From the NCBI GenBank assembly GCA_958009085.1, contig OY253680.1, positions 930,001 to 994,000 on the forward strand: 64,000 nt of DNA, read 5' to 3'. The DNA comes from Protoeuglena noctilucae (lineage: Eukaryota). Position 1 is the first letter of the stretch, and the number at the start of each line of letters is the position of its first letter. This document shows, in pieces, positions 17,117 to 23,100 of the stretch. The notes below the pieces were generated by a model. The model was not told the DNA's origin and did no database searches. It was given only the letters and a program-made list of their open reading frames with translations. Position numbers and translations under genes: made by a program.

Positions 17117-20100
17117 ATGGGAGACCGGGCCACAAGGCGAGCAACCGGAAGCCGTGATGGTGTGAATGCCCGTGGCTCGCTCGCGCCGCCGCCGATGGGC
17201 GCTGGGACACTTGCTTCATGTACAACTGCACCCAGAGTATCGACGCCGCTGCAAGTCTGCGCGCCATCGCCGGCCTGCGCCGCGCCGAGGCCCACGCAGC
17301 ACGCGTCGCTCCCGCTTCACCGATGGACTCCCCTGCCTCTGCGCTTCGCAGGGAATGGGTGGAGGACCGCATTTTCTCGTTCCTGGGCATGAGCGAGGGC
17401 GCGCTCGTGTCATACGTCCTCGCGCTGGTGCGTGCAGCGATGCGCTTGCGTGCAAATGCCGCGCACGGGCCACCGCGAGCGCTTTTAAGCCTTTCCCCTG
17501 CATCTTTCTGCTTATATCGCATCTATGATTCCTCAACTCGTCCCCTCATCCGCAGGGCAAGCGCCACACGGACCCGTCGCGCCTGGCGGACGAGCTCTCC
17601 TCGCAGGGCCTGCCGCCCGGCCCCGCCCTGGACTCATTCGCGCGCGATTTGATCGACCGGATGCCCCGCCGCGGCCCCAGCACCTCGCAGCTGCGCAGCG
17701 ACGGCGTGACGGGCGCCGCGGCCCTGCGCCGCAGCCAGGCGATGGGGATGCTCGAGGAGCCGGCGATGGACGAGCTGCCCGTCGCCGCGGCTCCGTTTCA
17801 GGTGGCAGAGGCGCCGGAGAGGCGCGGGCAGGGCGGCGGGGAGGCGGGCGAGGCCGGGGTGGCGGGGAAGGGGCGGGCGCGGGGCCATCGTCGTGAGAAG
17901 GGATCGGATGGGAGAGGACAGGAGAATGAGGACGATGACGGCGTGGGTGTGTTGGCGCGGTTGGGTGGAGAGAAGCGCAGGCGCGGGTGGGAGGAGCAGG
18001 AGCTGGAGGAGGAGAGGGCAGAGGAGCAGAAGAGGTGAGGGGGGTTGTTGGGGTGAGGTGGGGGGGTTGCAGTTGGGGCTGGGTGATTGTAAGACTGGGA
18101 AGTGGTAAATGACAACAGGGAGTATAGTATAGGATGGATTGGGTTATGCTTGCTTGCCAATGCGCGCATCGGCTGTCGCTTGTCCTCTTGTGTTGCGCCA
18201 CTGCATGGGTGCTCGACATACTTACTGAACTGACATTCATTATCAATGCAGGGAGAGAGAGCGCGCGATGGACCGTGACGTGGAGGAGCGCCGTGCTTTC
18301 GAGGACCGCCTTCGTGCCAAGGACGAGGCAAAGACGGAGAAGGCGGGGGCGGTGAAGCTGTCGAGGGCGGAGAGGGAGGAGGAGGCGAGGAGGAAGTACG
18401 GTGAGTGAGGGGGGTGATGGTGGTGGTGATAGCGACAGTGAGTGGAGCTGTTTAGTGCGAAGGAAGGAAGGAGGAGGAAGGGAGGAGGAGGCGAGGAGGA
18501 AGTACGGTGAGTGGATAGATACTAGATATGAAGAGTGATTGAGAGTCACAGGTGGAGGGCAGAGAGGGAGTCTGGTGAGTGGCCCCTTCCCTCGTCTTGC
18601 ACGCATCCCTCTCCTCCCACAACATGCTTATCTCTCACGCATCCCCATTCCCATACATAATCTCACATACATAATGTCACACATACATCTCACATCCCTC
18701 TCCCCTATGACCCCACGTATATAACTCGTATACATCTCATATCCCTCTCCCCCATCACCACCCCACACAGAGGACGAGGACGCCCGCGCCCGCCTGGTCC
18801 CCCAGCTGCGGGAGCGCGCGAGGCAGGAGTACCTGCGCAAGAGAGAGGCGGACAAGCTGGAGGATTTGAAACAGGAGATCGAGGACGAGGAAGCGCTGTT
18901 CGCGGGGGAGAGGCTGACCGACAAGGAGAGGGCCGCCCTCGAGTACAAGAGGGAGGTGTACCGGCTGGCCAAGGCGAAGCAGGACGCGGTGGAGGTGAGG
19001 GATATTAGATATGAGTGTGAACGAGATGTATGGGATATTAGATGTTGACTGGGAAGAGAGTAGCAGTTGTGGTGGAGCAATGCCACCCTCAATGCCACTG
19101 CCACCCCCACTCCCAACTCCACCTCGCCCATCCCCATACACCACACACACCCATCACCCACCTTACCCATCCCCTTCTCAGGAGTTCGAGAACCTCCGCG
19201 AGTACCGCATGCCAGACCAGTACGATGACGCGGAGGGCCAGAGCCGGCGCCTGGACGTGCTCACGGCACGATATGACGAGGACAGAAAGGGAAAGAGTCG
19301 CATCGACGACGAGCCCGTCGGGGGTCGGTGGGCGGAGCAGGATGGGTGGGAGCGGGAGCAGATGGCAAAGGCGGCCATGCAGACGGGGGCGAAGGATAGG
19401 GGGAGAGGGGGGGAGGCGAGGGAGGGGGAGATGCTGGTGGAAGATCAAGTGGAGTTCATCAGGCGAGTGATATGAGATGGGATGATGTGGTCGTTATTGG
19501 TATTGGACTGGATGAGAGGGAGATGCTGGTGGAGGACAAAGTGGATTTCATTAGGCGAGAGATGGGAGAGATGGGAAATAGAAGAGAGAGGAGAGGGATG
19601 TGCTATGTGCGCTGTGCTGATGTCTTGTTGTTACTGCTACTCTTACTGCCGCGCCTGTCCCCATAGCATATCACAGTAAGACATACCATGACACATCGCA
19701 TGTCACATTCCATAACAGCCACACCCAGTCTCCCCCGATGCAGGGATGCGTTGTTGTCGGGTGAGGTGGTGGATGCGAAGGAGGACGCGGCGGAGAGGGA
19801 GAGGCAGGCCAGGATACAGGTGAGGGGTATTATGGGTGTGGATGTGTGGGTAGGAGAGAGGGTATGTGGAGAGAGGGAGCATGCATTGCCACCCTCCCTG
19901 CCACTCTCAACACCACCCCCACTGCCACCCCCACTGCCACCCTCACCACCACCCTCACTGCTTCCCCATCCCTCACCCCTCACCCCCTCCCTCCCAGTCC
20001 ATCCGCGACGAGCGCGAGCGCCTCCAGGCCCAGCGCCGCGACCTGCCCATGTTCAAATTCAGAGACGAGCTGCTCAAGGCCATCGAGGAGTACCAGGTGT

Positions 20101-23100
20101 TGATCGTGGTGGCGGAAACGGGGTCGGGCAAGACGACGCAGATCCCGCAGTATTTGCATGAGACGGGGTACACCAAGCTGGGGAAGATCGGGTGCACGCA
20201 GCCGAGGAGGGTGGCGGCCATGTCGGTGGCGGCGAGGGTCAGGTGAGGGGGTGGGAGAGGGAGAGGGGGTTGAGGGGTGAGGGGTACAGGGGTGAGAGGT
20301 GTGAGAGGGGTAGAGAGTGATGGGAAAGTAGCAAGCACCTCTGCTCTCACACACAACACCTCTCCATCACCCCCACCTCTCCCCTCACACATCCTCACCC
20401 CTCACCAACACCCCCCCCCTTCCTCCCAGCCACGAGCTGGGCACCAAGCTGGGCCAGGAGGTGGGCTACTCGATCCGGTTCGAGGACTGCACGAGCGACC
20501 GCACCATCATCAAATACATGACGGACGGCATGCTGCTAAGAGAGTTCCTGTCCGAGCCAGACTTGGCCTCCTACAGCGTCATGATGATTGACGAGGCACA
20601 CGAGCGGACCCTCCACACCGACATACTGTTTGGATTGGTCAAGGATGTGGCCCGTTTCCGTCCCGATCTCAAGCTGCTCATATCGTCGGCCACGGTCGAC
20701 GCGGAGAAGTTCAGCAGTTACTTCGACTATGCTCCCATATTCAAAGTGCCGGGGAGGAGGTACGAGGTGCCGGTCTATTACACAAAAGCGCCGGAAGCGG
20801 ATTACGTGGACGCAGCGGTGGCCACCGCGCTGCAGATCCACGCGCACGAGCCGCCGGGGGACATCCTGGTGTTCCTGACGGGGCAGGTGAGGAGTGGGGT
20901 AGTGAGAGTGATGAAGTGTGTGTTTGTTGGAGCAGAGCAGGTGGGGGACATCCTGGTGTTCCTGACGGGGCAGGCGAGTTGTTATTAGTGGTGATGAGAG
21001 TGGCGACATGTAGGCACTAGATATGACATCCTGGTGTTCCTGACGGGGCAGGTGAGGGAGTGGGGTGGGGGAGTGATACGCTAGTGTGGGAGCAGGGCAG
21101 GTAAGGCGAGGGTAGCGGGTTGCTGAGAGCGCAGATGGCTGCAAGCGAGTGGTGGAACAGTGACACCCGCTGCCACCCCTTTCCATATACATCTCAATCA
21201 CTCTCATCAACTCATATCTCCATCTGTCCGTCCCTTCTCAACCACAGGAGGAGATTGAGGCGGTGGAGGAGCTGCTCAAGTTCCGCACGCGTGGCCTGGG
21301 CAGCCGCATCGGGGAGATGATCATATGCCCCATCTATGCGAATCTGCCCTCCGACCTGCAGGCGAGAGATGAGAGATGGGGGATGGTTGCTGCTCAGTAC
21401 CCCCTGCTGCCGTCACGCATGCACCCCTACCCTTGACCCACCAGTGAGCGTGGCATCGTCAACACTGCTGTCCAACCATCAACCCCGTTTGTGGTGCATG
21501 CATAGCTTCATTCTCAATCTTCATTCACAGCCACAGTCTTTACTAACTCCTTCAAAACAACTCCCCCCATCTCCCCCCCAGTCCCGCATCTTCGAGCCCA
21601 CCCCCCCCGGCGCCCGCAAGATCGTGCTGGCCACCAACATCGCCGAGACCTCTCTCACGATTGATGGCATCAAGTACGTCATCGATCCGGGGTTCGCCAA
21701 GCAGAACTCGTACAATCCCCGCACGGGCATGGAGTCGCTGGTCGTCACGGCCATCAGCAAGGCATCCGCGGAACAGCGGTGAGGGGGGAGGGGGATGAGG
21801 GGGTGGGGGGGTGGTTAGTTAGGGGGGTTGAGAGTGGTGGGCAGAGCAACGGTGAGGGGGGTTGATGAGAGAGGGGCGAGTAGAGCAGTGGTGTTGGTGG
21901 TAACAGAGCCTCTACACGCGTCTCTCACTCTCTAGCCTCCTCCAGCTACTTCCTCACTCACAACCGATCACAGCCAATGCACCCCCTCTCCTCCACTCTC
22001 CCTCTCTTACCACACTCAACACTCACCCCACCCCTACCACTCCCCCCCAGCCGCGGCCGTGCCGGCCGCACGAGTGCTGGCAAGTGCTTCCGCCTGTACA
22101 CCCAGTGGTCCTATCAGCATGAGCTGGAAGATCAAACAGTCCCGGAGATCCAAAGAACGAATCTCGGCAACGTGGTGCTGCTCTTGAAGTCGCTGGGCAT
22201 CAACGACCTGATGGGGTTCGACTTCCTGGACCCACCCCCCAGCGAAGTGAGGGATGGGGTGGGATGGGATGTGTGGGGTGAATGGGGTTGATAGACACAT
22301 GTACACGCGCACTGCTGTGCACTCTGTCCATTCCCGCACTGTTTACCTTTCACTCTCTGCCTCACACTCCCTTAAACTGACGCCCAGTCACTCACACACA
22401 TCCAATTACTCACCCACTCCCCCCATCACTCCCCCCCCTCTCAGTCCCTGGTCCGCGCCTTGGAGCAGCTCTACGCATTGGGCGCCCTGAACGACCGCGG
22501 GGAGCTGACCAAGCTGGGCCGTCGCATGGCCGAGTTCCCATTGGATCCGATGCTGTCCAAGATGCTCATTGCGTCAGAGCACTACCGGTGCAGCGAGGAG
22601 GTGGCCACCATATGCGCCATGCTCACGTGCGGGGGTGCCATCTTCTACAAGCCCAAGGACAAGGCCATACACGCCGACAACGCACGCAAGGCCTTCTTCC
22701 GGTGAGGTTTGGGATGTGGGGGTGGGTGTGGGCAACTGGGTGTGCGGATGGTCATGTTTCAATTAAGCATATACTGTGCATTCCACTATTAATCGCCCCA
22801 TCCACTCCGAACTCTATTGACTGCCATCGCTTGCCCCATCCCCTCATCTCACAGTCCCCTCATCCCCATCCACTCACTCTCCCTCCCCCTCCCACCCCCA
22901 GTGGCGGCGTGGGCGACCACGTGGGCCTATTGCACGTCTTCAACGCCTGGGCAGAGACGGACTTCTCCTCTCAGTTCTGCTTCGAGAACTTCGTGCAGCA
23001 CCGGACCATGAAGCGAGCACGCGACGTGAGGGACCAGCTGGTGGGACTCATGGAGCGGGTGGAGATCGAACTCGTGTCGGGGTTGAATGACCTGGACGCC

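What the first reader, a model, noticed from the sequence alone, without database searches (positions are those of the whole stretch)
18373..21057. Exon-end plus donor echoes in three different DHX16 introns
Seen: (a) a 35-nt exact copy, 18373-18407 = 18479-18513, including the GTGAG donor. (b) a 42-nt copy, 19426-19467 versus 19518-19559, with 5 mismatches, 4 of them at third codon positions ([12 protein letters not shown] versus [12 protein letters not shown]), keeping the GC donor. (c) gacatcctggtgttcctgacggggcagg in three copies at 20860, 20947 and 21025, with donors GTGAG, GCGAG and GTGAG; the second copy is in frame and would add 29 aa. Similar echoes occur in PGM, GSH2, the glycosyltransferase, RCC1 and MCM10, so this looks like a systematic process. 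Inference: a splice-site-centred duplication mechanism that lengthens introns and seeds alternative or decoy donors, possibly used for autoregulation of a splicing factor through NMD.
Basis: partly seen in the sequence, partly recalled or inferred. Interest (0 to 1): 0.7.

Follow-up and report, generated by a model that had tools for sequence, protein, structure and literature searches.

The report
Duplicated exon ends inside algal introns
In this marine green alga, many long introns carry a short spare copy of the neighbouring exon end and its splice site; these look like tolerated scars of local DNA duplication, not a control switch for the splicing gene, but the copies stay oddly faithful to the exon while the intron around them is scrambled.

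Summary
All three DHX16 echoes are exactly as described. Wild-sample DNA contigs support (c) and span the PGM and GSH2 echoes; RNA contigs use the outer site in the three cases I could check. In 1.04 Mb of the genome, 52 of 1,772 predicted introns carry echoes (47 of 277 introns of 200 nt or more), at donors and acceptors; 7 of 251 stop codons and 0 of 246 start codons do. Intron-only duplicates are about as common as geometry predicts, and 22 of 22 exon-only ones are in frame. So the process is systematic but not aimed at splice sites, and nothing supports NMD autoregulation. The known kind is the minisatellite straddling an exon-intron boundary (human F7, LMNB2). One thing stays unexplained: identity covers the exon part and splice consensus, then collapses; only 2 of 9 perfect donor echoes keep a related intron part, against 68-100% in same-chromosome simulations, and differences lean synonymous. 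Copying from a diverged allele during break repair fits best, but only in a tuned toy model.

The parts
17117..23578 (+). DHX16/Prp2-type DEAH helicase gene, 15 exons by hand, 1,093 aa (first exon inferred)
   Evidence: Open frame; 80-87% identity of exon 20431-20886 to proteins named DHX16/DEAH1; RNA contig 22 of X9
18373..18407 (+). (a) source: last 28 nt of the exon plus 7 nt of the true donor (intron starts 18401)
18401..18478 (+). (a) 78-nt spacer; not detectably related to the sequence after the echo; no second match in the genome
   Evidence: p = 0.38; single self hit
18442..18462 (+). (a) possible older layer, 16 of 21 identical to exon 18352-18372; not significant alone
   Evidence: p = 0.11
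18479..18513 (+). (a) echo, 35 of 35 identical; spare donor at 18507; use would shift the frame
19426..19467 (+). (b) source: exon end plus GC donor (intron starts 19463)
19518..19559 (+). (b) echo, 37 of 42 identical, GC donor kept at 19555; unit 92 nt
20860..20892 (+). (c) source: exon end plus the donor used in the RNA contig (intron starts 20887)
   Evidence: 1,005-nt gap in RNA contig 22 equals the outer-donor model
20887..20942 (+). (c) spacer 1, homologous to the sequence after copy 3: shows an 87-nt head-to-tail unit
   Evidence: score reached by 0 of 657 control introns
20943..20978 (+). (c) echo 2, 31 of 31 exon letters identical, donor GCGAG at 20974; in frame, +29 aa
21025..21057 (+). 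(c) echo 3, 33 of 33 identical, donor GTGAG at 21052; in frame but with a stop
   Evidence: wild DNA contig starts at 21028
26751..26876 (+). PGM acceptor echo (26751-26791) and source (26836-26876); 85-nt unit; outer acceptor 26853 used
   Evidence: RNA joint 26516>26853 in X9 and X12; DNA contig across both copies; unit homology p = 0.003
28401..28492 (-). Glutathione synthetase stop-codon echo: source 28464-28492, echo 28401-28429 in the 3' UTR
   Evidence: spanned by X6 and X7 contigs
4097..4204 (+). MCM10 echo at the predicted stop codon: source 4097-4122, echo 4179-4204
   Evidence: gene named by Pfam MCM10_OB; gene end not RNA-checked
8719..8806 (+). RCC1-repeat gene: acceptor echo (8719-8746) of 8779-8806; echo AG context changed
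10051..10154 (+). RCC1-repeat gene: donor echo, 63-nt unit
   Evidence: unit homology p = 0.013
11406..11695 (+). RCC1-repeat gene: intron 11466-11657 holds pieces of both flanking exons (11512-11532, 11576-11604) that do not reach the splice sites
35151..35204 (-). Glycosyltransferase: short donor echo (about 8 exon letters plus donor, 37-nt offset); outer donor used
   Evidence: RNA joint 34986>35195; Pfam

Best explanation
The echoes are scars of local head-to-tail DNA duplications, about 30-125 nt, with one breakpoint in coding and one in non-coding sequence. Step 1 (shown): the unit is exon end + splice site + part of the intron, and it can expand into arrays. Step 2 (shown in 3 cases): the outermost splice site stays in use, so the mRNA is unchanged. 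Step 3 (shown statistically): selection, not targeting, sets where they are seen. Intron-only and boundary-spanning events survive, exon-only ones survive in frame, stop-codon ones survive, start-codon ones do not (inferred reason: an upstream ATG). Step 4 (inferred): they arise in break repair, when one end invades a template, copies across the intron 12-50 nt into the next conserved exon, and is end-joined to the other end instead of annealing. A sister template gives near-perfect units. For most echoes the downstream unit was not a twin of the upstream one: it was copied from, or later overwritten by, a template whose intron interior had already diverged, most likely another allele. My odds: about 0.8 for steps 1-3, about 0.4 for the diverged-allele form of step 4. 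The spare sites have no shown function.
For: Units: 13 of 34 echoes show intron-part homology at p < 0.05; 10 introns hold multi-copy arrays, one with units 64 of 65 identical; (c) spacer 1 matches the sequence after copy 3. Contiguity: 35 of 43 exon-derived intron matches end at the donor, against 521 of 1,171 for randomly displaced copies (p = 8e-7). Outer sites in RNA: PGM, glycosyltransferase, DHX16 (c). Filter: 22 of 22 exon-only pairs in frame; 50 boundary vs 44 intron-only pairs, geometry 0.59-1.78; stops 7 of 251, starts 0 of 246. Decoupling: identity about 93% up to the exon end and at background from about +8; GT/GC kept in 36 of 39, GC type in 4 of 5; 2 of 9 perfect donor echoes keep a related intron part against 79-100% (ageing) and 68-84% (own-exon conversion); pN/pS 0.24-0.29 where a neutral echo predicts 0.5. 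A diverged-template simulation fits most of these numbers. HAP2-GCS1 in the genome suggests sex. Duplication by D-loop extension plus end joining is proposed in PMC7368036 (passages).
Against: No diverged allele was seen: two wild DNA runs match the reference with 0 differences in all 16 pieces shown, and two metagenome scans gave no intron-bearing relative. The fitting simulation was tuned: 7 parameters, intron divergence 0.4-1.0 with synonymous change only 0.12-0.3 of that. Four untuned versions missed the perfect-echo result (71-93%), and none gave the observed positive correlation (+0.28, p = 0.058). The synonymous excess is moderate (51 vs about 31 expected, P = 0.019) and rests largely on one TAF1-like gene (19:6); the other 46 echoes give 32.5:34.5, p = 0.05-0.23. 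One young paralog pair shows a short intron no more diverged than its exons (read by eye). Exon boundaries outside 16.8-36.5 kb are my own predictions.
Confidence: 0.6

Rival explanations
1. Plain same-chromosome tandem duplication (slippage or paired nicks) followed by neutral decay, with the simple G-rich and C-rich intron tracts mutating far faster than exon-like DNA.
For: Near-perfect young units exist. Arrays show many 6-28-nt deletions and micro-duplications. Intron-only repeats also keep short perfect cores. A 5-8x faster intron part reproduces match length, GT retention and overall unit homology. Excluding one gene, the synonymous excess is weak.
Against: Even at 5-8x, 79-84% of perfect echoes keep a related intron part; observed 2 of 9 (P = 0.0003 at 0.8). 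Ageing predicts a negative correlation between echo divergence and unit homology; observed +0.28. Synonymous fraction 0.55 against 0.36 simulated.
Confidence: 0.2
2. A splice-site-targeted, RNA- or spliceosome-guided process copies the exon end plus splice signal into the intron.
For: Identity stops within about 4-11 nt of the site (mean exact run 6.6 at donors, 4.7 at acceptors). 36 of 39 donors and 15 of 17 acceptor CAGs are intact. It would explain perfect echoes with unrelated spacers.
Against: The same pattern ends at stop codons, which the spliceosome does not mark. Donors and acceptors are mirror images. Intron-only duplicates are as common as geometry predicts. 13 of 34 units are visibly head-to-tail. 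A spliced-mRNA template would carry the next exon, not the donor (inference). The (a) spacer has no second copy in the genome.
Confidence: 0.1
3. The echoes are kept by selection as decoy or alternative splice sites, in DHX16 for autoregulation through NMD.
For: Splice consensus is retained; the echo donor scores as high as the true one in 18 of 39 cases; 45 of 56 inner sites would give an early stop. DHX16 has three.
Against: Outer sites in all 3 RNA-checked cases. No frame preference, and about two thirds frameshift by chance. Echo genes are a functional miscellany. DHX16 is not an outlier (P = 0.10). Echo donors are weaker on average (p = 0.014). A decoy would not need identity to its own exon (inference).
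Confidence: 0.06
4. Assembly artefact, such as merged haplotypes.
For: (a) and (b) were not spanned by a displayed contig. One wild run may be the source of the assembly.
Against: Short-read contigs of other wild samples span the PGM and GSH2 echoes without differences and break exactly where (c) predicts. Runs of two studies hold 0.95-0.99 of the words. Copies differ in graded ways.
Confidence: 0.02

Closest known systems
Minisatellites whose first unit spans an exon-intron boundary (human F7 IVS7 37 nt, LMNB2 100 nt, PDGF intron 4 81 nt, CBS IVS13, interferon-inducible 6-16); PMC1557585, abstract and Introduction read
   Same: Unit = exon end + donor + intron start, reiterated into the intron; pseudo-donors mostly silent; most upstream donor used; unit sizes overlap.
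   Different: There: isolated loci, 5-25 units, donor side. Here: about 1 in 6 long introns, 2-4 units, donors, acceptors and stop codons, and units whose intron part is diverged or unrelated while the exon part is near-identical.
Variable internal tandem repeats at exon-intron boundaries in human paralogs; PMC2812944, first part and passages read
   Same: Tandem repeats at exon-intron boundaries alter gene structure.
   Different: There they often create new introns and alternative transcripts in young gene families; here single-copy genes keep their mRNA in the cases checked.
Intron gain by tandem duplication of an AG|GT site (Rogers model); PMC3265369 and PMC2891723, passages read
   Same: Short intragenic tandem duplication involving splice signals.
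   Different: That duplicates exon sequence and makes a new intron. Here an existing boundary is duplicated and the existing intron only grows.
Small tandem duplications from break repair (paired nicks with CST-Pol alpha fill-in; D-loop extension plus Pol theta joining); PMC8355091 and PMC7368036, passages read
   Same: Head-to-tail copies from break repair; the second route is the proposed step 4.
   Different: Both describe exact copies from the same chromosome or the sister; neither predicts identity that stops at the splice consensus. Neither pathway was tested in this alga.
Inter-allelic conversion at human minisatellites; PMC2599865, abstract only
   Same: Repeat arrays reshaped by exchange between alleles and by synthesis-dependent strand annealing.
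   Different: Long homogeneous arrays; no coding anchor.
Decoy or poison splice sites in splicing-factor autoregulation (search listing only; otherwise recalled)
   Same: Spare splice sites in an intron of a splicing gene that would cause an early stop.
   Different: No use, regulation, cross-species conservation or enrichment in splicing genes was shown here.

Membership tests
Boundary-spanning minisatellite / tandem duplication (F7 IVS7 type) | First unit begins in the exon and includes the splice site | tested here: met
   35 of 43 exon-derived matches end at the donor; 36 of 39 keep GT/GC
Boundary-spanning minisatellite / tandem duplication (F7 IVS7 type) | Units are head-to-tail and alike over their whole length | tested here: inconclusive
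   Met for (c), PGM and 13 of 34 echoes; not detectable for (a), borderline for (b) (p 0.38, 0.07)
Boundary-spanning minisatellite / tandem duplication (F7 IVS7 type) | Outermost site used, pseudo-sites silent | tested here: inconclusive
   Outer site in 3 of 3 cases checked; contigs cannot show rare use; 53 joints not displayed
Boundary-spanning minisatellite / tandem duplication (F7 IVS7 type) | Copy number varies between alleles | tested here: inconclusive
   No variation in the displayed pieces and joints of two wild runs; too few haplotypes
Intron gain by AG|GT tandem duplication | New intron bounded by the two copies | tested here: not met
   RNA removes the echo inside an existing intron; spacers end G-rich, with no consistent AG before the echo
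Poison or decoy splice-site autoregulation | Regulated use of the spare site, sensitive to NMD | not testable with these tools
   Only contigs were available for these runs
Poison or decoy splice-site autoregulation | Enrichment in splicing-factor genes and bias to frameshift | tested here: not met
   0 of 18 other named echo genes; frame classes 20/20/16
Poison or decoy splice-site autoregulation | Conserved in related species | not testable with these tools
   No relative held; none found
Mobile element or Introner with target-site duplication | Inserted sequence belongs to a dispersed family | tested here: not met
   (a) region has one match in the genome (that search skips simple repeats); only 1 spacer searched genome-wide
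Randomly displaced short copy (templated insertion; 'doublets', recalled) | Copied tract placed without regard to the exon boundary | tested here: not met
   81% anchored vs 44% simulated, p = 8e-7
Inter-allelic repair scar | Echo and downstream intron match another allele better than the own gene | not testable with these tools
   No second allele found
Inter-allelic repair scar | Differences mostly synonymous; identity mirrors functional constraint | tested here: inconclusive
   pN/pS 0.24-0.29, P = 0.019 after base-change correction, driven by one gene; identity stops at splice consensus and stop codon

The most novel reading that the evidence does not exclude
Most echoes are preserved fragments of other alleles: during repair or recombination a broken intron copied a diverged homolog's whole intron plus 12-50 nt of its exon and was end-joined. 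One haploid genome would then hold about a thousand dated samples of allelic exon-intron junctions (52 per 1.04 Mb, extrapolated), a record of past sex between strongly diverged lineages and a route to intron growth and intron replacement that leaves the mRNA untouched.
Probability: 0.3. Interest if true: 0.72.

Novelty: new variant of a known kind. Interest (0 to 1): 0.5.

Why it matters
Boundary-spanning repeats with silent pseudo-donors are known from a handful of human genes. Here they occur in about one in six long introns, at both intron ends and at stop codons. That gives hundreds of natural tests of how an alga with short introns chooses between two near-identical splice sites 30-125 nt apart, and a measurable route of intron lengthening. 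If the exon-faithful, intron-scrambled pattern comes from copying diverged alleles, single genomes would record past outcrossing. For DHX16 itself the result is ordinary: a passenger, not a shown regulatory circuit.

Tried and rejected
Special RNA structure: regions (a) and (c) fold no better than shuffles (z +2.6 and -0.5). Subtelomeric effect: the interior of C1 has 0 echoes in 320 introns, but the middle of C18 has 10 in 140; echoes cluster by gene instead (45 same-gene pairs vs 10.4 expected, 0 of 2,000 permutations). Extra G- or C-richness of echo introns over other long introns: none (0.433 vs 0.429, p = 0.6). Spacer from elsewhere: one search, self hit only. Transcript-derived DHX16 with the 29-aa insert: the best 120 of 7,999 hits held no protein of this species, so uninformative. 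Three PGM proteins of this species all follow the outer acceptor. Paralog calibration: the p25-alpha pair is too old (introns unalignable); the ankyrin pair has only a short intron. Own-exon conversion model: did not fit. Wild runs X6 and X7 showed no DNA joint among the 15 displayed (53 not shown); this proves nothing about absence. Earlier scan notes: none. Literature searches found no genome-wide description of this pattern in a green alga; the library lacks most subscription papers, and no supplements were read. A recalled paper on complementary intron ends was not found.

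
Full report
Verdict. What is there is a selection-filtered class of short duplications across coding/non-coding boundaries, with one unexplained property.

Setting. The window lies on contig C13 of a 26.3-Mb, 27-contig genome. Its PGM is closest to chlorophyte proteins and it occurs in marine samples. 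I did not identify it further. The gene at 17117-23578 has an open 1,093-aa frame and matches DHX16/DEAH1 proteins.

The three echoes. Coordinates, mismatches and donors are as stated. Inner donors give early stops in (a), (b) and (c3); (c2) adds 29 aa in frame. In wild run X6 a contig begins at 21028, where a 31-mer graph breaks if the 33-nt repeat is present twice, and contigs span the PGM and GSH2 echoes with no differences. (a) and (b) rest on word shares of 0.95-0.99 in 6 runs of two studies. RNA contigs use the outer site in PGM (26516>26853), the glycosyltransferase (34986>35195) and, by an exact 1,005-nt length match, DHX16 (c). Contigs drop rare forms and 53 joints were not displayed, so minor use is open.

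Genome sample. I fetched 980 kb in six blocks and, with the window, ran a self-trained gene finder. It reproduced 14 of the 15 RNA joints displayed; 7 were in its training gene, so 7 of 8 are independent. Genes under 450 nt, incomplete genes and introns with N were dropped. In 1,772 introns of 289 genes there are 39 donor and 17 acceptor calls (one acceptor call is a gene-model artefact, dropped from the codon and homology counts) in 52 introns of 30 genes. Chance expectation is under 1 per side. Rates: 0 of 892 introns under 130 nt, 5 of 603 at 130-199, 47 of 277 at 200 or more. Exon parts are 12-50 nt; spacers are mostly 40-90 nt. Echoes cluster by gene; one TAF1-like gene has seven echo introns, next to HAP2-GCS1.

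Not aimed at splice sites. Among 145 local repeat pairs in the first 864 kb (periodic arrays filtered out; 8 pairs in a distant-diagonal control), 50 span a splice site, 44 are intron-only, 22 exon-only, 11 exon-into-intron without a site and 6 intergenic. All 22 exon-only pairs keep the frame. Uniformly placed tandem duplications would give a boundary:intron-only ratio of 0.59-1.78; the observed ratio is 1.14. Stop codons carry echoes (7 of 251), start codons none (0 of 246; p = 0.015). Four of the seven stops contain GTGA and could be mispredicted donors; only GSH2 was checked. Ending at the donor needs no targeting, since a head-to-tail unit that starts in the exon must contain it. Randomly displaced copies would be anchored in 44% of cases, against 35 of 43 observed. 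Unit homology is visible in 13 of 34 echoes, in (c) and in 10 multi-copy arrays.

Not a DHX16 circuit. Three echoes in seven long introns is within background (P = 0.10). Of 24 other echo genes scanned, 18 have Pfam hits, among them Lon, ERO1, a phosphodiesterase, a Mur ligase, Psb27 and CFAP43; none shows a splicing-factor domain. Unit lengths fall 20/20/16 over the three frames.

The unexplained part. Identity is about 93% up to the exon end, follows the splice consensus, and is at background from about +8. GT/GC survives in 36 of 39 echo donors, the GC type in 4 of 5, CAG in 15 of 17. If units were born as twins and aged, the perfect echoes should have the best-kept intron parts. Simulations give 87-100% (point and block mutation), 79-84% (intron part 5-8 times faster) and 68-84% (conversion from the own exon); observed 2 of 9 for donors (1 of 9 in one rerun of the controls) and 0 of 2 for acceptors. 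The correlation has the wrong sign (+0.28, n = 47, p = 0.058). Echo-exon differences are 51.5 synonymous to 40.5 non-synonymous in 55 echoes, pN/pS 0.24-0.29 against 0.5 for a neutral echo; with base-change classes taken into account about 31 synonymous are expected (P = 0.019). Against this, the TAF1-like gene supplies 19:6 and the other 46 echoes are not significant.

Mechanism. The pattern is what two functional versions of one junction look like, as in an old paralog pair in the sample. I therefore favour break repair in which one end copies across the intron into the flanking exon and is end-joined, the route proposed for tandem duplications in PMC7368036 (passages), with a sister template in young arrays and a diverged allele in most. 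A tuned simulation of this matches mismatch rate, perfect fraction, match length, donor retention and synonymous fraction, and gives 24-37% homology among perfect echoes. It has seven free parameters, needs introns to diverge 3-8 times faster than synonymous sites, and untuned versions failed. No second allele was found. This step is a hypothesis, at about 0.3-0.4.

Comparison. It works like the human minisatellites that straddle an exon-intron boundary and leave silent pseudo-donors (PMC1557585, Introduction). Membership is met for the anchor, partly for head-to-tail likeness, and open for silence and allelic variation. It is not intron gain by AG|GT duplication. Six searches found no genome-wide description in a green alga, within a library that lacks most subscription papers; no supplements were read. 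Gene names TAF1, IDM1-like and PrimPol-like are my reading of Pfam hits and recalled domain layouts.

Scores. Interest 0.5; new variant of a known kind. The most novel open reading, echoes as fossils of other alleles, has probability 0.3 and would deserve about 0.7.

Noticed in passing
L099:7078 to L101:5421 (G000:C18, about 497-515 kb): HAP2-GCS1 gamete fusogen beside a TAF1-like gene (DUF3591, zf-CW); lowest GC of the sample (0.61), long AT-richer introns and 13 echo calls in about 30 kb, with the strongest synonymous bias. Could be a region of unusual recombination; the gene finder split HAP2 into three pieces.
   Followed up: partly
L100:624-1043 (HAP2 intron): Four-unit array of a 92-nt exon-end unit: exon part 21 of 21 identical in all copies, spacers 64/65, 35/40 and 40/59 identical to the first.
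   Followed up: yes
all blocks: 299 of 1,507 predicted introns (20%) start with GC, mostly GCGAG; one GC donor is RNA-supported (36144>36341).
   Followed up: no
all blocks: Long introns have a G-rich 5' part and a C-rich 3' part; intron length is a gene-level trait (median 172 nt in echo genes vs 118 nt). Two regions folded no better than shuffles.
   Followed up: partly
window 16800-36500: Two wild DNA runs match the reference with 0 differences in all 16 displayed pieces, introns included, while other runs with the same species label share next to no words: a clonal lineage within a cryptic-species label is possible.
   Followed up: no
window 11067-11174 and 19887-19961; also L033 and L081: A 12-nt C-rich minisatellite recurs in the 3' halves of unrelated introns.
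   Followed up: no
window 13514-13682: 12-nt and 15-nt tandem repeats in what looks like a coding exon of the RCC1-repeat gene.
   Followed up: no
window 10568-10767: A 200-N scaffold gap inside an intron of the RCC1-repeat gene.
   Followed up: no
window 32547-32637: RNA-supported intron on the minus strand that my gene model missed, probably in a 5' UTR or first exon.
   Followed up: no
P0002, P0003: Database PGM proteins of this species include a form ending in the last intron (537 aa) and one with a 47-aa N-terminal extension, possibly a transit peptide.
   Followed up: no
G000:C7:934009-934049: 41-nt, 93% match to the (c) exon end on another contig, probably a DEAH paralog.
   Followed up: no
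L025:1133-3765 and L028:2254-4932: A 2.7-kb inverted duplicate at 80% identity; also a dispersed ankyrin-repeat gene family.
   Followed up: partly
L079:887-1126: An echo-bearing, intron-rich gene with a weak Pfam Herpes_UL52 primase hit, read as a cellular PrimPol-like gene.
   Followed up: no
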